Assembly: GCF_900604355.1 (NCBI RefSeq)
Contig: NZ_UWOE01000001.1
Location: 292,617 to 316,616, forward strand
Source of the DNA: Luxibacter massiliensis
GTDB taxonomy: Bacteria; Bacillota; Clostridia; Lachnospirales; Lachnospiraceae
Direction: 5' to 3'
Length of the DNA stretch: 24,000 bases
The position numbers were made by a program, and so were the translations under genes. The notes under the pieces are model-generated. The model made no database searches. It saw only the letters and a program-made list of their open reading frames with translations, and was not told where the DNA came from. Each line of letters starts with the position of its first letter. Within the stretch, counting starts at the first letter, position 1. Shown piece by piece: positions 5,824 through 21,970 of this stretch.

Positions 5824-6873
5824 ATGAACAAGGGAAAGGACGTACGTCTGACACAGATGGCAAAAACGGCAGGATGAGCAGCTAAAATTGGTCCTGAGAC
5901 CCTTGCCCAGGTTCTGGGTAAGCTGCCTGAATTTTATGATGAGAACCTTATAGTTGGAATTGAGACATCTGACGATGCCGCAATCTATAAAGTGACGGAT
6001 GAAATTGCCATGATACAGACGGTAGATTTCTTTACTCCGATTGTAGATGACCCTTATACCTTTGGGCAGATTGCAGCAGCCAACTCTCTGAGCGATGTGT
6101 ATGCCATGGGAGGAGAACCAAAGGTGGCCTTAAATATAGTAGGCTTTCCCAATTGTCTGGATCCGGAAATATTAGGTGAGATTTTGAGAGGCGGAGCGGA
6201 CAAGGTAAAGGAAGCAAGAGCGGTTTTAGTAGGCGGGCATTCTGTACAGGATGAGGAACCTAAATATGGCCTGAGTGTCTCCGGTTTTGTGCATCCGGAC
6301 AAGATATATAAGAATTATGGCTGCCAGCCGGGAGATGCCCTTATCCTGACGAAGCAGATTGGCAGCGGTATTATAACAACGGCCGTGAAAGGTGGGATGG
6401 CCTCTGTGCAGGCTGAGAAAGAAGTAATTACAGTGATGGCTTCTCTTAACCAGAAAGCTGCAGAAGCCGCTAAAGGATTTACTGTACATGCATGTACAGA
6501 TATTACTGGGTTTGGCCTGCTCGGACACTGTGCGGAGATGGCATCCGCCAGTGATGTAACGCTGGAGATTCACGTAGAAGATGTGGCTTATATGGAGGAT
6601 GCCCCCGGATATGCTAAGATGGGACTTGTACCGGCAGGGGCCTATAAAAACAGAGAACATAGCGGAGAATTTGTAGATATGGGGTCTGTGGACGAATATT
6701 ATACAGATATGCTCTATGACCCACAGACATCAGGCGGCTTGCTTTTTAGCATTCCTCAAAATGAGCTTGGAGAATTCCTCGCAGAACTAACAGATAAGAA
6801 ACTGGATACGAAGGTCTCTGTAATAGGGCGTGTCCTTGAGAAATCAGACAAACTGATACGGCTGATGCCTTAG
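5824..6873 (+). CDS. selD: Selenide, water dikinase (selenophosphate synthetase), selenocysteine-containing; in-frame UGA at 5875-5877
   Basis: ATG 5824 follows GGAAGGAGG. It translates as MNKGKDVRLTQMAKTAG-U-AAKIGPETLAQVL, the SelD active-site G(C/U)xxK motif, and runs in frame into the track ORF at 5992. The remainder is AIR-synthase-fold SelD (DDPYTFGQIAAANSLSDVYAMGG). Confidence 0.9.
5875..5922 (+). promoter_or_regulatory. Sec-UGA codon plus candidate SECIS hairpin in selD
   Basis: UGA at 5875-5877. The hairpin CTTGCCCAG-GTT-CTGGGTAAG (5902-5922) has 9 bp including one G:U. Its apical loop contains GU and begins 33 nt after the UGA. A smaller GGTC-CTGA-GACC hairpin lies at 5890-5901. Confidence 0.45.
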
Positions 6874-7020: not shown

Positions 7021-8439
7021 ATGGATAAGAAACTTTTGTTCCGCAGAATTCCTAAAGTGGATGTTTTGATGGAGGACGAAAAAATAAAGAAAATGACAGA
7101 GCAGTACAGCTATGACAGTGTATTAGAAGCTGTCAGGGAAGAACAAGAAAAACTGCGGGAATTTATTGGAAGCTGTGAGGATGAGGAAGCTGCAGAAAAG
7201 GAAATAGCTAGTTTGCCGGAGCATATAGAACAGAGAATTGCGTATTTATACCGGCCCAATATGTCAAAGGTGCTCAATGGGACGGGCACGATTTTGCATA
7301 CTAACCTGGGGCGCGCCCCCCTGGGAACTGCACATCTGAACCAGGTTGCCAGAATCGCAGGGGGCTATTCTAATCTGGAATATGATCTGGAAGCCGGAAG
7401 AAGAGGCGAGCGTTATTCTCACTTTGAAAAACTTTTGTGTAGAATAACAGGGGCAGAGGCTGCCATGGCGGTCAATAACAATGCAGCAGCCGTGATGCTT
7501 ATTCTCAGCTCCATGGCCCGGGGCGGCGAAGTAGTTGTATCCAGGGGGGAGCTTGTAGAGATAGGCGGGAAGTTCAGGATTCCAGATGTTATGGAGCAGA
7601 GCCAGGCTGTACTCAAAGAGGTAGGGACAACCAACAAGACTCATCTGTCAGATTATGAGGAAGCGGTCAGTGACCGGACGAGGGCTTTTTTAAAGGTTCA
7701 TACAAGCAATTACTGTATCGTGGGCTTTACGGAGTCAGTGCCTATAAGTGACCTGATTCCATTGAAGGAGAAGTATGGAATCCCTGTAATTGAAGATCTG
7801 GGAAGCGGCGTATTGGTAGATTTGAGTAAATATGGACTGCAGCATGAACCTACTGTGCAGGATTCTATAAAAAGTGGTGCGGATGTGGTTTGCTTCAGCG
7901 GCGATAAGCTTTTAGGAGGCCCGCAGGCTGGAATTATAGTGGGGAAGAAGAGGTATATAGACAAAATGAAGAAGAATCCTCTCACCAGAGCTTTGAGGAT
8001 TGACAAATTTACGGCATCTGCATTGGAGATTGTATTAAAGGAATATTTGTCCGAAGAAAGGGCGGTTCAGAATATACCTGTGCTGCGCATGATTACCCGC
8101 AAAATTGAGGATATCAAAGAAGAGGCAAACAAATTTTGCGGGATGTTAAAGGATGCAAAGTTAGATGCGGAGATAGAAGTTATTGAGTGTGAATCCCAGA
8201 TTGGGGGCGGGTCTTTGCCAATGGAAAGACTTCCAAGTATGGCAGTAACGATCCGGCCCCTGAAAATCACGACTGCCTGTCTGGAGGAGCGGCTGAGGCA
8301 CCTCCCTATTCCCGTGATCGGCCGGGTTGTCAACGACAGGATTCTGCTGGATATGAGAACTTTTGAGGGCAGCTGTATGTCTGATTTCATAGAAGGCCTC
8401 AGAAAATCACATATTCTGGAGAAGGAGAGAGATTTGTAA
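7021..8439 (+). CDS. selA: L-seryl-tRNA(Sec) selenium transferase
   Basis: SelA motifs VLNGTGTILHTNLGRAPL and FSGDKLLGGPQAGIIVG (PLP lysine). The stop TAA overlaps the selB ATG (TAATG). Confidence 0.9.
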   Translation: MDKKLLFRRIPKVDVLMEDEKIKKMTEQYSYDSVLEAVREEQEKLREFIGSCEDEEAAEKEIASLPEHIEQRIAYLYRPNMSKVLNGTGTILHTNLGRAPLGTAHLNQVARIAGGYSNLEYDLEAGRRGERYSHFEKLLCRITGAEAAMAVNNNAAAVMLILSSMARGGEVVVSRGELVEIGGKFRIPDVMEQSQAVLKEVGTTNKTHLSDYEEAVSDRTRAFLKVHTSNYCIVGFTESVPISDLIPLKEKYGIPVIEDLGSGVLVDLSKYGLQHEPTVQDSIKSGADVVCFSGDKLLGGPQAGIIVGKKRYIDKMKKNPLTRALRIDKFTASALEIVLKEYLSEERAVQNIPVLRMITRKIEDIKEEANKFCGMLKDAKLDAEIEVIECESQIGGGSLPMERLPSMAVTIRPLKITTACLEERLRHLPIPVIGRVVNDRILLDMRTFEGSCMSDFIEGLRKSHILEKERDL

Positions 8440-10355
8440 TGAAGCATATTATTATTGGGACAGCAGGGCATATTGACCATGGTAAGACAACGCTGATTAA
8501 GGCCCTGACCGGCAGGAATACAGACCGATGGGAGGAAGAACAGCGCAGGGGAATAACAATCGACCTTGGATTTACGTACTTTGATTTAAGAAATGGGAAT
8601 AGGGCAGGAATTATTGATGTGCCGGGGCATGAAAAGTTTATTAATAATATGGTGGCCGGTGTAGTCGGTATGGATTTAGTTCTTCTTGTAGTTGCCGCTG
8701 ATGAAGGGATTATGCCCCAGACAAGGGAACATATGGACATTCTGGAGATGCTGGGTGTGAAGAAGAGTATCCTGGTACTAAATAAATGTGACTTGGTAGA
8801 TGAGGAGTGGCTGGAGCTTGTAGAGGAGGAGATTCAGGAAGAACTTGCAGGTACGTTTCTGGAAGGGGCACCTGTGATGAAAGTCTCGGCGGCTACAGGG
8901 GAAGGAATAGATGGGTTGGTAGCGTTAATTGAGCATTTCAGCGAAGAGGAGCTGGAGGAGAAAGATATTCATACGATCCCCCGGCTTCCAGTAGACAGGG
9001 TATTTTCTATGTCTGGCTTTGGCACAGTTATTACAGGGACTCTTATTAGCGGGATGATATCAAAAGAGGATACGCTGGAAATGTATCCAAATGGGAAGGA
9101 ATGTAAAATACGGAATATTCAGGTTCATGGTGTGAATGTGGATACATGTTATGCTGGACAGCGTGTAGCCGTAAATATTTCAAATATGAAAAAAAGAGAG
9201 ATTCAGAGAGGATGTGTCCTGGCACCTCCTAAAAGCATGAGGGATTCAAGGCTGATGGATGTGAAGCTGAATATTTTGGATTCTTCCGTGCGTGTTTTGG
9301 GAAACCAGGTGCGCCTTCATTTTTTCAGTGGTACGAGCGAGGTGTTGTGCCGTGCTATATTGTTGGACAGTGAAAGCCTTGGGCCGGGGGAAAGTGGATA
9401 TGTGCAGCTGCGTATGGAGGAAGATGTGGCATTTCGAAGAGGGGATAGATTTATTGTCCGGTTCTATTCACCTATGGAGACTGTCGGGGGAGGCGTCATT
9501 TTAGAGCCAAATGCGTCCAGGAAGAAGCGTTTCAGCCAGGAGGCCATTGAAAGCCTAAGACAGAAAGAATCAGGTTCTGCGGAAGATGTGATTGAACTCC
9601 ATGTACGCGAGTTTAGCGATACTATGGCAGCAATGTCTGAACTGGCTAAATTGTCAGCCCTTTCAATTGAAGAGACATCCCAGGCAGTGTCAGAATTGGA
9701 AAGGCAGGGTTTAGTCTGTGTATTTCCCATGAAGAGAGAGACATTCGTGTGGCATATGGCGGATGAGGCTTCATTGAGGGGACGTCTTGTAAACGCCCTG
9801 CAGGATTATGTCCGAAAGTACCCTTACCGGTATGGTATGCCAAAAGCTGAAGTTCATAGTACATTTTTAAAAAAGGTAAAGCCAAATGTTTTTGACAGAT
9901 ATATCGAATGGCTGGTGGAGAAGGGGGCGTTGTCCCGGCATGAAGAATTTTTAGCGCCAGAGGGATACACAATCAGCCTGGATGGAACCTATAACAAAAT
10001 AAAAGGACAGCTTCTGAATGTACTGAAAGCAGCAGGATACGATTTTGTGAAAATTACAGAAATAAATTTTGGCGGTATTCCCGGGGAGACTGTGGATGAT
10101 ATCTTGATTCTGCTGATAGATTCAGGTGAAATTGTGAAGGTGGCAGAGGGAATGTATACAGTAAGGGAATATATGGATGAGGCACAGGATAAAATTATTT
10201 CAAGGCTTAAGGAGAATGGAAAAATTACAATCGCTGAGATACGAGATATGTTTGCCACAAGCCGGAAGAGTGCAAAACCCATTCTGGAGTATATGGATAG
10301 TATTAAAGTTACAAAAAAAACAGGAGCAGAGAGTGAAAGGATATCAAATCTATGA
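8439..10355 (+). CDS. selB: Selenocysteine-specific translation elongation factor
   Basis: GTPase motifs GHIDHGKT, DVPGH, NKCD, plus a long C-terminal winged-helix-type extension (638 aa), typical of SelB. Confidence 0.9.
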   Translation: MKHIIIGTAGHIDHGKTTLIKALTGRNTDRWEEEQRRGITIDLGFTYFDLRNGNRAGIIDVPGHEKFINNMVAGVVGMDLVLLVVAADEGIMPQTREHMDILEMLGVKKSILVLNKCDLVDEEWLELVEEEIQEELAGTFLEGAPVMKVSAATGEGIDGLVALIEHFSEEELEEKDIHTIPRLPVDRVFSMSGFGTVITGTLISGMISKEDTLEMYPNGKECKIRNIQVHGVNVDTCYAGQRVAVNISNMKKREIQRGCVLAPPKSMRDSRLMDVKLNILDSSVRVLGNQVRLHFFSGTSEVLCRAILLDSESLGPGESGYVQLRMEEDVAFRRGDRFIVRFYSPMETVGGGVILEPNASRKKRFSQEAIESLRQKESGSAEDVIELHVREFSDTMAAMSELAKLSALSIEETSQAVSELERQGLVCVFPMKRETFVWHMADEASLRGRLVNALQDYVRKYPYRYGMPKAEVHSTFLKKVKPNVFDRYIEWLVEKGALSRHEEFLAPEGYTISLDGTYNKIKGQLLNVLKAAGYDFVKITEINFGGIPGETVDDILILLIDSGEIVKVAEGMYTVREYMDEAQDKIISRLKENGKITIAEIRDMFATSRKSAKPILEYMDSIKVTKKTGAESERISNL

Positions 10356-11275
10356 ACCTGAAACAGTTAGAGGCATTTGTATCAGTAGCCGAGGAGGGAA
10401 GCTTTTCAAAAGCGGCAAAGGCCTTGTTCTTGACGCAGCCAACTGTGAGCGCGCACATTTCTTCTTTGGAGCAGGAATTAAATGTCCGCCTGTTTGTGAG
10501 AAATACGAAAGAGGTGAATTTATCTGACAGCGGCAGGATATTGTATGAGTACGCAAAACAGATGGTTGTTCTGGAGAAAAAGATAGAGGCGGCGTTTGAT
10601 GGGACGAGAAAAGAGGAAGGGCACAGCATCAGGATTGCCGCTTCAACTGTTCCTGCCCAGTATCTGCTGCCGTCTATACTCACAGCTTTTAGCAGGAAGT
10701 ATCCCAGGGAGCAGCTGAAGATTACAGAGACAGATAGTGCGGGAGTCGTGGAACAGATTGTAAACCACAATGCAGATATAGGTTTTACAGGCACTGTCCT
10801 GGAGAAAAAGCATTGCTGCTATATTCCTTTTTACAGAGATGAGCTAATTGTAATAACCCCCAATACAGAAAAATTCAGATTTCTTAAGGAGAAAGACGGG
10901 ATAAATACTGAGGACAGATCATGGATTCAGAATGAACCCGTTATTATGCGTGAGGAAGGATCTGGGACGCGCAAGGAGGCGGAGAGACTTTTGAAAAGTG
11001 TTGGGATAGCGGTGAGGGATCTGAACATTGTGGCGACTATAGAGAACCAGGAGACGATTAAGCGGCTGGTGGGCAGTGGGACTGGCATTTCTATTATTTC
11101 CCGGCTGGCGGCTGAAGAAGAAATAGAGGAAGAAAAGGTGCTCAGCTTTCCCCTGGGAGGAGAAGATGAAAGGAGGAATATCAATGTTATTTATAATAAA
11201 AACCTCCAGCTTACAGCTACAGGAGAAAGTTTTCTGCGTATGGTCAGGAAGGTCTATCCAGAGAATGCTGTCTGA
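10352..11275 (+). CDS. LysR family transcriptional regulator, coupled to selB
   Basis: N-terminal LysR HTH (MNLKQLEAFVSVAEEGSFSKAAKALFLTQPTVSAHISSLE) plus a substrate-binding domain. Its ATG overlaps the selB stop (ATGA at 10352-10355). Confidence 0.85.
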   Translation: MNLKQLEAFVSVAEEGSFSKAAKALFLTQPTVSAHISSLEQELNVRLFVRNTKEVNLSDSGRILYEYAKQMVVLEKKIEAAFDGTRKEEGHSIRIAASTVPAQYLLPSILTAFSRKYPREQLKITETDSAGVVEQIVNHNADIGFTGTVLEKKHCCYIPFYRDELIVITPNTEKFRFLKEKDGINTEDRSWIQNEPVIMREEGSGTRKEAERLLKSVGIAVRDLNIVATIENQETIKRLVGSGTGISIISRLAAEEEIEEEKVLSFPLGGEDERRNINVIYNKNLQLTATGESFLRMVRKVYPENAV

Positions 11276-11339
11276 GGCCGAGATATTGCTGAAGTCTGAG
11301 TAGGATAAAATTTAAAGGCACACGGCTGTACAGATTTCT

Positions 11340-11590
11340 ATACCCAAAGGGCACCCCATAAAGCAGGCCCCCAAAGGGCGGGCGGACTGTGTCCGACAAG
11401 GCATACCCAAAGGGCACCCCATAAAGCAGGCCCTCAAAGGGCGGGCGGACTGTGTCCGACAAGGTATACCCAAAGGGCACCCCATAAAGCAGGCCCCCAA
11501 AGGGCGGGCGGACTGTGTCCGACAAGGTATACCCAAAGGGCACCCCATAAAGCAGGGCTCAAGGGGCGGACGGACTGTGTCCGACAAGGT
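11340..11590. repeat. Tandem array 1: four head-to-tail copies of a 63-bp GC-rich unit
   Basis: Units are 11340-11402, 11403-11465, 11466-11528 and 11529-11590 (62 bp). Consensus is ATACCCAAAGGGCACCCCATAAAGCAGGCCCCCAAAGGGCGGGCGGACTGTGTCCGACAAGGT. Copies 1-3 differ by 1-2 nt. There are no unique spacers. Confidence 0.95.
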
Positions 11591-11618
11591 ATATCTTTTG
11601 GGGCATGGATGTAATAAA

Positions 11619-11647
11619 TTGGCTGTAGGCCTTTAGCAGGGTATATA
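11619..11647 (+). promoter_or_regulatory. Candidate sigma-A promoter for the desulfurase-yedE operon
   Basis: TTGGCT (11619-11624), 17 nt spacer, TATATA (11642-11647). It starts 28 nt after the end of repeat array 1. Confidence 0.35.
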
Positions 11648-11745
11648 TAGGGGATATCTATATATACTCTTTATTTATGTTGGTTTTCAATTAGACTCTG
11701 CCTGTGGCGGAGAGTATACTAAAAATGTACATGGGGGATAAAGAT

Positions 11746-12882
11746 ATGATTTATATGGATAATGCAGCAACAACAATGCAGAAGCCAAGGGAAGTGTCAG
11801 AGGCGGTGGTTCAGGCCCTGAACTCTATCGGAAATGCAGGCCGTGGGGCGACGGAAGCAGCTTTAAGTGCATCCAGGGTTATTTACGAGACGAGAGAGAG
11901 GCTTGGCCGCTTTTTTCATGCAGAGAATCCCAGGCGTATTGTGTTTACTGCAAATTCAACAGAAAGTTTGAATATCGCCATAAAAGGTGTTTTAAATCCA
12001 AATGACCATGTAGTTACTACAGTGCTGGAACATAATTCAGTACTGCGCCCATTGTACGAGTGCCAGGAGCATGGGACAAAGCTGACTATTGTGGACTGTG
12101 ATGAAAAAGGGCGCATTTCTTGTGAAATGCTTGAGGATGCTATTAGGGATGATACAAAAGCTGTGGTGTGTACTCATGGTTCTAATCTGACTGGCAATAT
12201 GACTGATATAGAAGAAATCGGGAGGATTGCAAAGAGGCATGGTGTGTTATTCATAGTAGACGCATCCCAGACAGCGGGGGTATTTCCTATAGATGTACAG
12301 AAGATGGGGATTGACATCCTTTGCTTTACTGGGCATAAAAGTTTGCTGGGCCCCCAAGGAACGGGAGGGATGTATGTGAAGGAGGGAGTGGATGTACGCC
12401 CTCTTTTAAGCGGAGGCAGCGGAGTAGATACATATAACACACATCATCCGTCAGATATGCCTACAGCTTTGGAGGCAGGGACTCTGAACGGCCATGGGAT
12501 AGCCGGGTTGGGAGCTGCACTTCTGTATCTGGAGCAGACGGGCATCGACAGTATCAGAGCCACGGAGCTGAGTCTGATGAGGCGCTTTTATGAAGGGATT
12601 TCTGCGGTACCTGGCGTAGAAGTCTATGGGGACTTCGGGACAGATATGAGATGTCCCATTGTTTCCTTTAACATCAGAGATTATGATTCTTCAGAAGTGA
12701 GTGACGAATTATTTGTAACCTACGGCATAGCAACCAGGCCTGGCGCCCACTGTGCGCCCTTAATGCACCAGGCGCTGGGGACCGAGGGACAGGGAGCCGT
12801 GAGGTTCAGCTTTTCTCACTATAATACGGAAGAGGAGATTGATTTCGCAATTCAGGCAATTAGAGAATTGGCAGAAGAGTAG
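11746..12882 (+). CDS. Class V aminotransferase-fold cysteine desulfurase / selenocysteine lyase-like protein
   Basis: PLP lysine motif FTGHKSLLGPQG and the active-site loop RPGAHCAP (NifS/CsdB-type Cys). I prefer ATG 11746 (MIYMDNAATT) after GGGGGA. The track start at 11704 is a GTG. Confidence 0.8.
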   Translation: MIYMDNAATTMQKPREVSEAVVQALNSIGNAGRGATEAALSASRVIYETRERLGRFFHAENPRRIVFTANSTESLNIAIKGVLNPNDHVVTTVLEHNSVLRPLYECQEHGTKLTIVDCDEKGRISCEMLEDAIRDDTKAVVCTHGSNLTGNMTDIEEIGRIAKRHGVLFIVDASQTAGVFPIDVQKMGIDILCFTGHKSLLGPQGTGGMYVKEGVDVRPLLSGGSGVDTYNTHHPSDMPTALEAGTLNGHGIAGLGAALLYLEQTGIDSIRATELSLMRRFYEGISAVPGVEVYGDFGTDMRCPIVSFNIRDYDSSEVSDELFVTYGIATRPGAHCAPLMHQALGTEGQGAVRFSFSHYNTEEEIDFAIQAIRELAEE

Positions 12883-12894
12883 GAGGGAAATCAA

Positions 12895-13992
12895 ATGAAT
12901 TTATCGGATTCAAAAGGAAAACTGGCCATTGCCGGTGTAATTTGCGGTCTTGTTGCTGTGTGCCTGGCTATTTTTGGGAACCCGGCAAACATGGCATTTT
13001 GTATTGCGTGTTTTATCCGTGACACGGCGGGCGCCCTGGGGATGCATCAGGCGGAGGCGGTGCAGTACGCAAGGCCTGAGATCATTGGATTAGTGCTGGG
13101 GGCATTTCTTATTTCAGTAGCTACAAAAGAGTACCGCTCCACCGCAGGTTCATCTCCTATGATACGGTTTGTGCTGGGGATGATTATTATGATAGGATCA
13201 CTCGTATTCTTAGGGTGTCCACTGCGTATGATTATAAGGATGTCAGCCGGTGACCTTAATGCATGGGTAGCGCTGATTGGGTTTATTTTAGGGATTGCAA
13301 CAGGCGTGTTTGCATTAAAGAAAGGGTTCAGCCTTGGCCGTGCACATGTCACAGGTAAAATGAGCGGGGGTGTGCTTTCGGTTCTTATGCTGGCAATTCT
13401 GGTGCTTGCACTGGCAACATCACTTTTAAAAGCAAGCGAGTCTGGCCCGGGAAGTATGCATGCGCCTTTGATCTTGTCATTAGTAGGCGGATTGATTTTT
13501 GGGGCTATGGCTCAAAAGTCCAGGATGTGTTTTGCCGGAGGGATCCGGGATGTCATCCTTATGAAGAATTTTGACTTACTGACAGTTATCGGGGGAATAT
13601 TTGTAGTAATGCTTATATTTAACATTGCTACCGGAAGATTCATACTGGGATTTGATACACCGGGAATCATTGCACACTCTGAACATTTGTGGAACATTCT
13701 TGGTATGTATACTGTAGGGTTTGCTGCAGTTCTTGCAGGAGGATGCCCTCTCAGGCAGCTGATACTTGCAGGGCAGGGTTCCTCTGATTCAGCCGTGACG
13801 GTAGTGGGAATGTTTATTGGGGCAGCAATCTGCCATAACTTCGGCCTAGCAGCCAGCGGTACAGCCTTAAATGCAGAGACAAACGAGGTAGTTGCAGGGG
13901 CAGTGCCTTTGTATGGAAAGATTGCAGTAATAATTTGTATAATAGTATGTTTTATTATTGCTTTCACCAATAAGAGGGAGCAGGCTAAATAG
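12895..13992 (+). CDS. yedE: YedE/YeeE family membrane protein (putative selenium/sulfur transporter)
   Basis: Multi-TM protein with the paired Cys-containing motifs of the YeeE/YedE family (FCIACFIRD, MCFAGGIRD, GGCPLRQLILAG). GGAGGG lies 7 nt upstream of the ATG. Confidence 0.8.
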   Translation: MNLSDSKGKLAIAGVICGLVAVCLAIFGNPANMAFCIACFIRDTAGALGMHQAEAVQYARPEIIGLVLGAFLISVATKEYRSTAGSSPMIRFVLGMIIMIGSLVFLGCPLRMIIRMSAGDLNAWVALIGFILGIATGVFALKKGFSLGRAHVTGKMSGGVLSVLMLAILVLALATSLLKASESGPGSMHAPLILSLVGGLIFGAMAQKSRMCFAGGIRDVILMKNFDLLTVIGGIFVVMLIFNIATGRFILGFDTPGIIAHSEHLWNILGMYTVGFAAVLAGGCPLRQLILAGQGSSDSAVTVVGMFIGAAICHNFGLAASGTALNAETNEVVAGAVPLYGKIAVIICIIVCFIIAFTNKREQAK

Positions 13993-15540: not shown

Positions 15541-15569
15541 TTAACATTTTGCAACAGCTCCCCTATAAT
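15541..15569 (+). promoter_or_regulatory. Candidate sigma-A promoter firing into repeat array 2
   Basis: TTAACA (15541-15546), 17 nt spacer, TATAAT (15564-15569). The predicted start near 15576 is a few nt before the first repeat unit. Confidence 0.35.
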
Positions 15570-15582
15570 TAAACTTCCACAC

Positions 15583-15876
15583 CTAAAGGACCCCCAAGGG
15601 GCGGGCGGACTTCGTCCGACAAGGTATACCCAAAAGGCACCCCATAAGGCAGGCCCCAAGGGGCGGGCGGACTTCGTACGACGAGGTATACCCAAAGGGC
15701 ACCCCATAAAACAGGCCCCCAAGGGGCAGGCGGACTTCGTCCGACAAGGTATACCCAAAGGGCACCCCATAAGGCAGGCCCCCAAGGGGCGGGCGGACTT
15801 CGTCCGACAAGGTATACCCAAAGGGCACCCCATGAAACAGGCCCCAAAGGGGCGGGCGGACTTCGTCCGACAAGGT
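15583..15876. repeat. Tandem array 2: about 4.7 copies of the same 63-bp unit, in the same orientation as array 1
   Basis: A partial unit at 15583-15625 is followed by 15626-15687 (62 bp), 15688-15750, 15751-15813 and 15814-15876. Consensus is ATACCCAAAGGGCACCCCATAAGGCAGGCCCCCAAGGGGCGGGCGGACTTCGTCCGACAAGGT, about 4 differences per unit from array 1. Confidence 0.95.
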
Positions 15877-15940
15877 ATATTTATTGAACTGGTAATTTTC
15901 AATAAGATATTAGTTTCAAAATTGTATTGGCCTGCAGGCT

Positions 15941-17319: not shown

Positions 17320-17417
17320 GGGGGTAGAAAGGTAACTGGTGTGCCTCCTGGTCTTCAAAACCAGTGTTGGGCGTTTGTAGCGTCCTGGGTGGGTTCGATT
17401 CCCACATACCTCCGCCA
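17320..17417 (+). tRNA. selC: tRNA-Sec (anticodon UCA)
   Basis: 98 nt. The acceptor GGGGGTA pairs with TACCTCC, followed by discriminator G and an encoded CCA. The D stem is extended (AGGTA/TGCCT). The anticodon arm is CTGGT-CTTCAAA-ACCAG with TCA at 17355-17357. The variable arm is long (GGGCG-TTTGTAG-CGTCC). The T arm is GTGGG-TTCGATT-CCCAC. The layout parallels E. coli selC. Confidence 0.85.
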
Positions 17418-20948: not shown

Positions 20949-21248
20949 ATGAAGGCATTGAGCTATGGAGACAAAATTATCCGTATGGAAGGCGTCATTG
21001 TAGAAGTCTATGATGGATGCGTGGGAATCGATCTGAAAGGCAGGCTGGGGTACCTAAAAATACCTATGCGCATGCTGATCAGTGATTACCCTCTGAAAGC
21101 TGGCCAGGAGGTTGCATGGAACATGAGTTTTATAGAGCAGCTTGGCCCTGAAGTAAATGATAAATATATAAGCAATCTGGAGGCGTCTAACAGACGACAG
21201 GAAGAAATGCATAAAGCAGACAGAAATAACAAGGAGGTAGAACAATGA
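20949..21248 (+). CDS. Small conserved prd-operon protein of unknown function
   Basis: 99 aa. It starts 1 nt after the prdA stop (TAAGATG) and overlaps the prdB start (ATGA), so it is translationally coupled on both sides. I recognise no motif. Confidence 0.6.
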   Translation: MKALSYGDKIIRMEGVIVEVYDGCVGIDLKGRLGYLKIPMRMLISDYPLKAGQEVAWNMSFIEQLGPEVNDKYISNLEASNRRQEEMHKADRNNKEVEQ

Positions 21249-21970
21249 GTTTGACAACCACAAAAGGGTTACAGTCAGAAATTTACGTTCCGATTACCCC
21301 TCCGGCGGTGTGGACACCAGTTAAAAAAGAGCTTAAAGATATGTCTATTGCCCTTGCAACAGCTGCAGGCGTCCACTGCAAGAGTCAGGAAAGGTTTAAC
21401 CTTGCCGGAGACTCTACCTGGAGAAAGATAACGAACGATACGCCGTCAAGCGAACTGATGGTATCCCATGGCGGGTATGATAATGGAGATGTAAATAAAG
21501 ATATTAACTGTATGTTCCCCATAGACAGAATCCATGAATTGGCGGCAGAGGGTTTTATAAGAGCTTGCGCGCCAGTACATGCCGGCTTTATGGGAGGCGG
21601 TGGAAATCAGGATAAATTTAAAAATGAAACAGGGCCTGCAATCGCACAGATGTTCAAAGAAGAAGATGTAGATGCAGTTATCCTGACCGCTGGCTGAGGC
21701 ACCTGCCACCGCTCTGCAGTATTGGTGCAGAGAGCGATTGAAGAGGCTGGAATACCTACAATTATTATTGCGGCCCTTCCCCCAGTTGTCCGTCAGACTG
21801 GTACACCTCGTGCTGTAGCTCCGTTAGTCCCTATGGGTGCTAACGCAGGCGCGCCTAACGATGTAGAAATGCAGACGAATATTATGAAAGCAACACTGGA
21901 GCAGCTGATTAAAATTGATTCACCTGGCAAAGTAGTACCTCTGCCATTTGAATATGTAGCGAAAGTGTAG
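21245..21970 (+). CDS. prdB: D-proline reductase subunit PrdB, selenocysteine-containing; in-frame UGA at 21695-21697
   Basis: The track ORFs 21245..21697 and 21722..21970 share a frame. Read through, they give ...VILTAG-U-GTCHRSAVLVQRAIEEAGIPT, a U-x-x-C redox motif as in the PrdB/GrdB family. Total is 241 aa. Confidence 0.9.
21695..21732 (+). promoter_or_regulatory. Sec-UGA codon plus SECIS-like hairpin in prdB
   Basis: UGA at 21695-21697. The stem CTCTGCA (21712-21718) pairs with TGCAGAG (21726-21732), with apical loop GTATTGG containing GU. The hairpin starts 14 nt after the UGA. Confidence 0.65.

What the first reader, a model, noticed from the sequence alone, without database searches (positions are those of the whole stretch)
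11340..11590. 63-bp phased tandem repeat between the selB-coupled LysR gene and the next operon's promoter
Four head-to-tail copies lie here, and the outermost is the most decayed.
- **Elements in each unit:** an 8-bp palindrome GGTATACC is created exactly at every unit junction. There is a GC hairpin GCCC-CCAAA-GGGC and a second hairpin CGGAC-TGT-GTCCG.
- **Not CRISPR:** there are no unique spacers.
- **Not convincingly coding:** the period equals 21 codons, which is why several minus-strand frames stay open and yield the repetitive artefact ORFs in the track.
- **Phasing:** 63 bp is also six turns of B-DNA at 10.5 bp per turn. The junction palindromes therefore all face the same side of the helix, as expected for a cooperative protein-binding array.
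- **Position:** the array ends 28 nt before a candidate -35 box, in upstream-activator position for the desulfurase-yedE operon. On the plus strand it is also the 3' UTR of the LysR gene.

I do not recognise this unit as a named repeat family. A BOX-like modular element is the closest analogy.
Basis: partly seen in the sequence, partly recalled or inferred. Interest (0 to 1): 0.7.

Follow-up and report, generated by a model that had tools for sequence, protein, structure and literature searches.

The report
Dispersed hairpin repeat family of Lachnospiraceae
The 63-bp tandem array is real, but it is one of many copies of an apparently undescribed, hairpin-forming intergenic repeat scattered through the genomes of Lachnospiraceae gut bacteria, not a dedicated protein-binding array for the neighbouring selenium genes.

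Summary
**Observation.** It holds. Window 11339-11593 carries 4.1 head-to-tail copies of a 63-bp unit at 95% identity.

- A second array of the same unit lies on the same strand at 15591-15879 (4.6 copies).
- The unit belongs to a dispersed family. Its 21-nt box GGTATACCCAAAGGGCACCCC occurs at 21 loci in 12 Lachnospiraceae genomes and at 55 gut-metagenome loci.
- About 15 arrays lie in one assembly of the window's own species, beside unrelated housekeeping genes.

**Anatomy.** Each unit is a near-invariant box followed by one or two GC hairpins. The hairpin sequences differ between lineages with compensatory changes: 96.5% of cells are paired, and 11 of 12 pairs changed on both sides.

**Against a phased operator array.**
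- The period ranges from 46 to 83 bp across the family, and 61-64 bp within this species.
- Copy number at both window sites differs between strains (1, 2 or 4 units; 2.6 or 4.6).
- Orthologous lysR-desulfurase spacers in related genera have no array.
- A terminator-like hairpin and a conserved promoter-like site lie between array 1 and the next operon.

**Verdict.** This is a BOX/REP-like small interspersed repeat that expands and contracts locally. The "BOX-like" analogy is supported. The phased activator-array reading is not. The agent that spreads the repeat is unknown.

The parts
11339..11593 (+). Array 1. It has four 63/62-bp units (11339-11401, 11402-11464, 11465-11527, 11528-11589) plus a terminal TATA. 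It lies 62 nt after the lysR stop codon.
   Evidence: TRF, register printout, box matches, covariance-model hits of 70-79 bits.
11337..11357 (+). First copy of the conserved 21-nt box (consensus GGTATACCCAAAGGGCACCCC). Further copies start at 11400, 11463, 11526, 15623, 15685, 15748 and 15811.
   Evidence: The same box is found in 12 Lachnospiraceae genomes and at 55 metagenome loci.
11367..11379 (+). Hairpin 1 of unit 1 (GCCC-CCAAA-GGGC). It repeats once per unit.
   Evidence: Sequence. All 4 pairs changed on both sides somewhere in the family, and 97.4% of cells are paired.
11383..11395 (+). Hairpin 2 of unit 1 (CGGAC-TGT-GTCCG). It repeats once per unit. The loop is TTC in array 2.
   Evidence: Sequence. 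7 of 8 pairs changed on both sides; other lineages carry TGGAC/GTCCA, TGGGC/GCCCA, GCGCAC/GTGCGA or TCTGCAGC/GCTGCAGA.
15591..15879 (+). Array 2. It has 4.6 units of the same family on the same strand, and starts with a truncated unit. It lies between the TetR start and the proline racemase stop, antisense to both genes.
   Evidence: TRF, sequence, strain comparison showing 2.6 versus 4.6 units.
15876..15907 (+). A 32-bp AT-rich hairpin 'cap' module (TATA-TTTATTGAAC-TGGTAAT-TTTCAATAAG). It shares the GGTATA junction and is a second module type of the same composite repeat.
   Evidence: It caps arrays in L022, L042, L074 and L086, and forms its own 32-bp tandem arrays in L085 and L066. It is present after array 1 in all other strains but absent there in the window.
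11638..11680 (+). Terminator-like AT-rich hairpin (14 pairs) plus a T-rich tail. It is the probable 3' end of the selDAB-lysR transcript, downstream of array 1.
   Evidence: A hairpin of different sequence sits at the same position in the orthologous spacer of L090.
11692..11720 (+). Promoter-like site TAGACT-17-TATACT for the desulfurase-yedE operon.
   Evidence: The identical hexamers and spacing occur in the L090 orthologue.
15541..15569 (+). Promoter-like site TTAACA-17-TATAAT (11 of 12) pointing into array 2. Its function is unknown.
   Evidence: It is retained in all strains, but promoter-like sites reading into arrays are no more common in sense (9) than in antisense (9) across the family.
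10352..11275 (+). Flanking gene: selenium metabolism-associated LysR regulator. Its start overlaps the selB stop.
   Evidence: Pfam; NCBIfam NF040786 at 430 bits against a cut-off of 250.
11746..12882 (+). Flanking gene: cysteine desulfurase family protein. YedE (12895-13992), TusA and a Se/S carrier gene follow.

Best explanation
The two arrays are local expansions of a chromosomal, non-coding, modular interspersed repeat family found in Lachnospiraceae.

**Anatomy.** A unit is a near-invariant box (GGTATACCCAAAGGGCACCCC followed by rTAA), then one or two short GC-rich hairpins, then a tail ending in AAGG. In the hairpins only the base-pairing is conserved, not the sequence. Units join head to tail through the palindrome GGTATACC. 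A second module, a 32-bp AT-rich hairpin, uses the same junction.

**Shown**
- The family is dispersed at many unrelated intergenic sites.
- Both hairpins are maintained by compensatory change.
- Units at different loci of one genome resemble each other more than units of other genera.
- Copy number at a fixed site changes between strains by whole units.

**Inferred**
- Arrays grow and shrink by replication slippage or unequal recombination in register at the repeated junction and box.
- Units spread between loci by an unidentified trans-acting activity, or by gene conversion, that recognises the box and the hairpins.
- Array 1 is co-transcribed as part of the lysR 3' untranslated region. There its hairpins could at most modulate mRNA decay. 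It is not an operator for the adjacent LysR or TetR regulators.
For: **Reality of the arrays.** Array 1 and a second array are both detected.

**Dispersal**
- The box lies at 21 loci in 12 Lachnospiraceae genomes and at 55 metagenome loci.
- About 15 arrays lie in assembly ERZ652168, whose contig L042 is the same locus as the window.
- The covariance model finds 109 non-overlapping units.
- Neighbouring genes are functionally unrelated and include no transposase.

**Structure.** 96.5% of cells are paired, against 78.5% in shuffles and 27-44% in slid controls. 11 of 12 pairs changed on both sides (RNAalifold).

**Period and copy number**
- The period is 46-83 bp, with 1-4 boxes per array.
- Array 1 has 1, 2 or 4 units among strains.
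- Array 2 has 2.6 or 4.6 units. Strain L092 carries four identical units, which points to a recent local duplication.
- Many short-read contigs break inside the arrays.

**Similarity of units.** Median identity between loci within a genome group is 0.79-0.89, against 0.63 between the window species and Faecalicatena.

**Absence in relatives.** No unit is found at the orthologous loci L087, L089 and L090, although L090 keeps the same gene order from lysR to the proline racemase.

**Position and orientation.** Co-directional spacers hold 28 sense and 14 antisense arrays. Convergent spacers hold 10 and divergent spacers 9.

**Databases.** No Rfam family matches. No phage, plasmid or viral-contig match was found.

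**Precedent.** The BOX element of S. pneumoniae has variable tandem boxB modules, strain-to-strain length variation and artefactual ORFs (PMC3049150).
Against: - No mobilising enzyme, target-site duplication or empty site was identified, so dispersal by transposition is inferred rather than shown.
- The TATA at both array ends fits a duplicated target just as well as a partial extra unit.
- All related loci were found by exact match to the box, so its near-invariance is partly by construction.
- The pair counts were made on an alignment fitted to the model.
- Gene calls in related loci come from my own codon-score heuristic.
- The 2:1 sense bias (p = 0.04) and the strict maintenance of the hairpins leave room for a selected function at the RNA or single-stranded DNA level.
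Confidence: 0.72

Rival explanations
1. Functional structured RNA modules. The units are transcribed within untranslated regions, or from their own promoter at array 2. They act as RNA, for example as hairpin barriers to exonucleases, as processing sites, or as binding sites for an RNA-binding protein that reads the box.
For: - Both hairpins show compensatory changes.
- Arrays in co-directional spacers show a 2:1 sense bias.
- Array 1 lies between the lysR stop codon and a terminator-like hairpin.
- A strong promoter-like site points into array 2.
- Arrays in co-directional spacers lie a median of 62.5 nt after the preceding stop codon.
Against: - A third of the arrays in co-directional spacers are antisense, and 10 arrays sit in convergent spacers.
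- G.T mismatches (14) are no more frequent than A.C mismatches (17), so no one strand tolerates wobble pairs as an RNA would.
- Promoter-like sites reading into arrays are equally common in sense and antisense, 9 each.
- No Rfam match was found.
- Module number and type vary freely between strains.
Confidence: 0.13
2. A non-autonomous transposon (MITE-like, or REP/RAYT-like). Single units are inserted in trans by a transposase that targets TA or TATA. Repeated insertion into the element's own TATA end builds the arrays.
For: - Arrays start at TATACCC and end at GGTATA, with unrelated sequence outside.
- Some arrays mix units of different subfamilies: L040, L075, L054 and L002.
- The 32-bp cap is an almost pure inverted repeat. 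It shows an exact presence/absence difference flanked by TATA and TATG.
- Units are similar between loci of one genome.
Against: - The terminal inverted repeat of the 63-bp unit is only 6-8 bp.
- No transposase or RAYT-like gene lies near arrays in about 80 loci.
- No empty site was recovered, so no target duplication is proven.
- The window's arrays are internally homogeneous and differ from each other, as local duplication predicts.
- This idea concerns how units spread. It is compatible with the best explanation rather than exclusive of it.
Confidence: 0.1
3. The array is a helically phased set of palindromic sites bound cooperatively by LysR, TetR or another regulator, and it activates the desulfurase-yedE operon.
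For: - The GGTATACC palindrome recurs every 63 bp, about six helical turns, in this array.
- The array lies between a regulator gene and the next operon.
Against: - The period is 46-83 bp in the family and 61-64 bp in this species.
- Copy number is 1 to 4 among strains at this site.
- The same box lies at many unrelated loci and in both orientations.
- It is absent from orthologous LysR_Sec_metab loci.
- A terminator-like hairpin lies between the array and the conserved promoter-like site.
Confidence: 0.03
4. A bank of weak intrinsic terminators on the minus strand. In array 2, which is antisense to its neighbours, read-through from the proline racemase gene would meet GCCCC-TTG-GGGGC followed by CTGTTTTATG once per unit, insulating the TetR gene.
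For: The scan terminator-like sites on the minus strand of array 1 and 2 on that of array 2. Shuffles give 0.6 and 1.0 respectively.
Against: - The stems have only 5 pairs and the T runs are interrupted.
- The T-rich tail is specific to this species' subfamily. Faecalicatena units have ATGAGTTACGGGG at that position.
- Array 1 has the opposite orientation relative to transcription.
Confidence: 0.02

Closest known systems
BOX elements of Streptococcus pneumoniae (boxA-boxB(n)-boxC)
   Same: - Both are composite, non-coding, intergenic repeats built from modules.
- In both, one module is repeated head to tail a variable number of times and array length differs between strains.
- Both are predicted stem-loops.
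- Large arrays of both create spurious ORFs.
- In both, an early idea of a specific regulatory role gave way to a generic interspersed repeat (PMC3049150).
   Different: - The host family is different and no sequence relationship is known.
- Here the whole unit (box plus hairpins) is the repeated module, and there are no distinct A and C end modules. Only an optional 32-bp AT-rich hairpin cap is present.
- The junction is an 8-bp palindrome.
- The hairpin sequences are lineage-specific, with compensatory changes.
REP sequences and BIMEs of Enterobacteria and Pseudomonas, with their RAYT transposases
   Same: - Both are short GC-rich imperfect palindromes next to a conserved head.
- Both are present in tens of extragenic copies or more and often lie just after stop codons.
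- Both are clustered into arrays.
- Both have species-specific sequence variants.

(The REP side rests on established knowledge; RAYT background: PMC5581495.)
   Different: - REPs in BIMEs alternate in orientation, whereas these units are strictly head to tail.
- The conserved head here is 21-25 nt, not the tetranucleotide GTAG.
- No RAYT-like gene was seen near any array.
- REP/RAYT systems are known to me mostly from Proteobacteria (own knowledge, not tested here).
MITE-like bacterial repeats that duplicate TA (RUP, Correia/NEMIS, ERIC)
   Same: - Both are small, highly base-paired intergenic elements.
- Array ends at TATA would fit a TA or TATA target.
- The 32-bp cap module is essentially two inverted repeats around a loop.

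(Reviews: PMC3184786, PMC10969869, listed.)
   Different: - The 63-bp unit has no long terminal inverted repeats.
- Tandem head-to-tail arrays are not typical of MITEs.
- No target-site duplication or parent insertion sequence was demonstrated.

Membership tests
BOX element (pneumococcal) | Composite of modules, with one internal module in a tandem array of variable number. | tested here: met
   There are 1-4 boxes per array. Strains differ by whole units. A second module type is present. This is an analogy of architecture only.
BOX element (pneumococcal) | Sequence homology to the boxA, boxB and boxC consensus sequences. | not tested
The hosts are unrelated (Streptococcus versus Lachnospiraceae).
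REP/BIME | A short imperfect palindrome, maintained as a hairpin, next to a conserved head. | tested here: met
   Compensatory changes occur in both hairpins. The box is near-invariant (consensus line), with the caveat that loci were ascertained through the box.
REP/BIME | Neighbouring REPs in alternating (inverted) orientation within clusters. | tested here: not met
   Units within arrays share one strand. The only exceptions seen were fold-back variants: L036, L076, and the locus shared by L018, L041 and L067.
REP/BIME | A cognate RAYT (Y1 transposase) gene, typically flanked by REPs. | tested here: inconclusive
   None was found among about 400 ORFs within 4 kb of arrays or among the roughly 38 neighbours scanned with Pfam. 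Whole genomes could not be searched.
MITE | Terminal inverted repeats and a target-site duplication. | tested here: inconclusive
   Only TATACC/GGTATA (6-8 bp) is inverted at the ends of the 63-bp unit. TATA at both array ends is equally explained by a partial unit. No empty site was recovered.
CRISPR array | Repeats separated by unique spacers of similar length. | tested here: not met
   The units abut directly and the full 63 bp repeats.
Any Rfam RNA family | A covariance-model match at or near the gathering score. | tested here: not met
   Only tRNA-Sec passes in the window. The best matches on the arrays have E of 0.67 or more, far below the gathering scores. Nothing matched on the arrays of 18 related loci.
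Operator or activator-site array of the adjacent LysR_Sec_metab or TetR regulator | Sites confined to the regulon and conserved at orthologous loci, with fixed helical phasing. | tested here: not met
   The box lies at unrelated loci. It is absent from orthologous spacers. The period is 46-83 bp. Copy number varies between strains.
Protein-coding tandem repeat | A reading frame preserved across copies and relatives. | tested here: not met
   Only 32 of 77 periods are multiples of 3. Periods of 61, 62, 63 and 64 bp occur in one species. The array ORFs have no Pfam match above cut-off.
Intrinsic terminator | A GC-rich hairpin followed by a U run on the transcribed strand. | tested here: not met
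   The scan calls no site within the units on the plus strand. On the minus strand there are only weak 5-pair matches, specific to this species' subfamily.

The most novel reading that the evidence does not exclude
The invariant 21-nt box, next to hairpins whose structure but not sequence is conserved, is the recognition site of a conserved and still unidentified Lachnospiraceae factor. That factor could be a domesticated hairpin-specific nuclease or transposase, analogous to a RAYT but acting on head-to-tail units. It could instead be an RNA-binding protein. Either way the family would be a new repeat-plus-enzyme system, or a new class of structured RNA modules, in abundant gut Clostridia. 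It would also generate strain-level length variation and rearrangement breakpoints.
Probability: 0.2. Interest if true: 0.6.

Novelty: new member of a known kind. Interest (0 to 1): 0.35.

Why it matters
- **Annotation.** This array, its twin at 15591-15879 and their spurious ORFs should be marked as interspersed repeats. They should not be marked as regulatory sites of the selenium operons.
- **Assembly.** The family breaks short-read assemblies of common gut Lachnospiraceae, because many contigs end inside arrays.
- **Strain typing.** It gives ready-made variable-number loci for telling strains apart.
- **Rearrangements.** In two comparisons, synteny breakpoints between related genomes coincide with an array.
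- **Open question.** If a cognate factor exists, it would extend REP/RAYT-type biology to Clostridia.
- **Local biology.** The real control region of the desulfurase-yedE operon is more likely at 11638-11730.

Tried and rejected
- **Rfam.** I searched at gathering and at permissive thresholds on the window and on related loci. Nothing matched the arrays. A weak IS605-orfB-I match (E = 0.7) is at chance level.
- **Literature.** A search for the box sequence found 0 papers. Searches for interspersed repeats in Lachnospiraceae found nothing relevant.
- **Phage, plasmid and viral collections.** No match.
- **Riboswitch or regulon idea.** Rejected, because the downstream genes are functionally unrelated.
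- **Orientation bias.** My first ORF heuristic suggested the arrays always face the downstream gene. This did not survive better gene calls.
- **Stand-alone transcription units.** Promoter-like sites reading into arrays are equally frequent in both directions.
- **Strand-specific wobble test.** G.T 14 against A.C 17, which is uninformative about the strand.
- **IS200/IS605-type minimal element** (TTAC cleavage site plus subterminal hairpins on the minus strand). Set aside, because most arrays begin and end at TATA rather than at CCCC|GTAA and no tnpA or tnpB gene was found.
- **Mobile cassette bounded by the two arrays.** Rejected. L090 has the same gene order, apart from three extra genes before the TetR gene, and has no arrays.
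- **IS110 insertion in strain L023.** It lies outside the array.
- **Empty-site search.** I looked through LysR homologues and through the proline racemase. The spacers in other genera are too diverged, and all strains of this species carry at least one unit.
- **Folding energies.** Not significant for the window's units.

Full report
**1. The observation**

The sequence at 11339-11593 is a clean tandem repeat. It has a period of 63 bp, 4.1 copies, 95% matches and a score of 461 (register). The 21-nt core GGTATACCCAAAGGGCACCCC occurs eight times in the window at up to 3 mismatches, against none in 100 shuffles.

Three details need correcting:
- One of the three internal junctions reads GGCATACC, not GGTATACC.
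- The last unit is 62 nt long and is the most diverged.
- A second array of the same unit, on the same strand, lies at 15591-15879 (4.6 copies, 92%).

**2. Surroundings**

The window is a selenium and Stickland-fermentation region.
- Upstream of array 1 are selD (with an in-frame TGA), selA, selB and a translationally coupled LysR gene. The LysR protein matches NCBIfam 'selenium metabolism-associated LysR'.
- Between the arrays are genes for a cysteine desulfurase family protein, YedE, TusA, a Se/S carrier and a TetR regulator (minus strand).
- After array 2 come proline racemase (minus strand), tRNA-Sec and prdC/prdA/prdB. prdB has an in-frame TGA.

After array 1 comes a 14-pair AT-rich hairpin with a T-rich tail (11638-11670), and then TAGACT-17-TATACT (11692-11720). 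An orthologous spacer from another genus (L090) has a hairpin of different sequence at the same place. It is followed by the identical two hexamers with the same spacing. I therefore read array 1 as lying in the lysR 3' untranslated region, upstream of that unit's terminator. A terminator then separates it from the next operon's promoter. This step is inferred.

**3. The unit is a dispersed family**

An exact-match scan for the box found 21 loci in 12 species-level genomes, all Lachnospiraceae. They include two Faecalicatena contorta strains, F. fissicatena, Diplocloster agilis and several MAGs.

The metagenome scan found 55 more loci. Assembly ERZ652168 is the window's species, because its contig L042 is the same locus. 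It carries about 15 arrays on other contigs.

A covariance model built from 28 units found 109 non-overlapping units in 79 sources. It found none in the orthologous lysR loci of three related genera. Phage, plasmid and viral collections have no match. Rfam has no family for the unit. The held literature does not contain the box sequence.

**4. Anatomy across the family**

Every unit starts with the box plus rTAA. One or two GC hairpins follow, then a tail ending in AAGG, which joins the next TATACC.
- The hairpin sequences are lineage-specific. Hairpin 1 is GCCC/GGGC, GCCCC/GGGGC, GTCC/GGAC, GCCT/AGGC or GGCC/GGCC.
- Hairpin 2 is CGGAC/GTCCG, TGGAC/GTCCA, TGGGC/GCCCA, GCGCAC/GTGCGA or TCTGCAGC/GCTGCAGA.
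- On the model-based alignment, 96.5% of cells are paired, against 78.5% in shuffles and 27-44% when partners are slid. 11 of 12 pairs changed on both sides (RNAalifold).
- Mismatches are G.T 14 and A.C 17, so neither strand shows the wobble tolerance expected of an RNA.
- Folding energies of the window's units do not differ from shuffles.

A second module shares the junction. It is a 32-bp AT-rich hairpin, (G)GTATAC-TTATTGAAC-loop-GTTCAATAAG. It caps arrays, including window array 2 at 15876-15907, and it forms tandem arrays of its own.

**5. Dynamics**

At the lysR site, strains of this species carry 1, 2 or 4 units. All except the window also carry the 32-bp cap there. Array 2 has 2.6 or 4.6 units, and one strain has four identical units. 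Many short-read contigs end inside the arrays.

Periods between successive boxes range from 46 to 83 bp. Within this species they are 61-64 bp. Only 32 of 77 are multiples of three.

Units at different loci of one genome group are more alike (median identity 0.79-0.89) than units of the window species compared with Faecalicatena (0.63). Some arrays mix subfamilies. In two comparisons, homology between related contigs stops at an array, with housekeeping genes on the non-matching side.

**6. Position and orientation**

Gene calls in the related loci come from my own codon-score heuristic. With them, 61 non-redundant arrays have both neighbours called:

| Spacer type | Arrays |
|---|---|
| Co-directional, sense | 28 |
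| Co-directional, antisense | 14 |
| Convergent | 10 |
| Divergent | 9 |

Among all adjacent gene pairs in these loci, 397 are co-directional, 46 convergent and 40 divergent.

Neighbouring genes are unrelated in function. They include dnaK/dnaJ, argC, an IclR gene, a glycogen branching enzyme, dehydrogenases, transporters and glycosyltransferases. None is a transposase. Promoter-like sites reading into arrays are equally common in sense and antisense.

**7. Interpretation**

The data fit a small interspersed repeat of the BOX/REP kind. Arrays expand and contract locally in register, as BOX boxB arrays do (PMC3049150). Units are kept similar within a genome by dispersal or conversion.

The data do not fit a phased operator array. 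The period and copy number are not conserved. The box is not confined to selenium loci. Orthologous loci lack it. A terminator-like hairpin separates it from the promoter-like site.

What spreads the units is unknown. TATA at both array ends fits a TA or TATA target, but it fits a partial unit equally well. No empty site could be recovered.

The two arrays do not bound a mobile cassette. L090 has the same gene order without arrays, apart from three extra genes before the TetR gene.

**8. Caveats**

- The related loci were found through the box, so its invariance is partly by construction.
- The pair counts were made on a model-fitted alignment.
- De-duplication of metagenome loci was approximate.
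- No expression data exist.

**9. Verdict**

The family appears undescribed, yet it belongs to a well-known kind of element.

Noticed in passing
window 15591-15879: A second array of the same 63-bp unit (4.6 copies) lies on the same strand, 4 kb downstream. It sits between the TetR start and the proline racemase stop, antisense to both genes. Copy number is 2.6 or 4.6 among strains.
   Followed up: yes
window 15876-15907; L085 6671-6760 and 12621-12710; L066 about 2530-2590: A 32-bp AT-rich hairpin module shares the GGTATA junction. It caps 63-bp arrays and also forms its own tandem arrays. Window array 1 lacks the cap that every other strain has at that site, an exact 32-bp presence/absence difference.
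   Followed up: partly
window 15541-15569 (+): A near-consensus promoter-like site, TTAACA-17-TATAAT, points into array 2 and towards the convergent proline racemase gene. It is retained in all strains. No gene is apparent downstream on that strand.
   Followed up: partly
window 11638-11720; L090 about 7050-7130: A terminator-like hairpin is followed by TAGACT-17-TATACT. The orthologous spacer of another genus keeps the hexamers and a hairpin of different sequence. This is the likely real control region of the desulfurase-yedE operon.
   Followed up: partly
window 5824-6873 and 21245-21970: selD and prdB each carry an in-frame TGA (contexts TAG*AAKIG and TAG*GTCHRS), so both are selenoprotein genes split by ORF callers. 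tRNA-Sec is at 17320-17417.
   Followed up: partly
L023 14944-16179: One strain has an IS110-family transposase inserted about 45 bp upstream of the TetR start codon, outside the repeat array.
   Followed up: partly
L036 5376-5468; L076 4418-4549; L018 about 2446-2502 (also L041, L067): These are fold-back variants in which the box is followed by its own reverse complement. In L036 this gives a perfect 34-bp inverted repeat. They suggest template switching at the hairpins.
   Followed up: no
L011 versus L040; L056 versus L073: Homology between related contigs stops exactly at an array, with housekeeping genes on the non-matching side. The arrays may mark rearrangement breakpoints.
   Followed up: partly
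L038 6475-6510; L051 1107-1142: The 19-nt box also occurs inside a called gene, where it would encode ...DIPKGHPA.... This may be chance or the source of the box.
   Followed up: no
L014 5782-5889 and L074 1575-1706: Arrays of different subfamilies (periods 51 and 61 bp) sit just upstream of argC in two different species. This could be an old shared insertion site or a coincidence.
   Followed up: no
L010, L016, L039 flanks: Three arrays lie within paralogous flanking sequence (GGGAGGCTGCGTAACGGG... upstream and ...CTATGTACCGG... downstream). This may be another repeated element and has no Rfam match.
   Followed up: no
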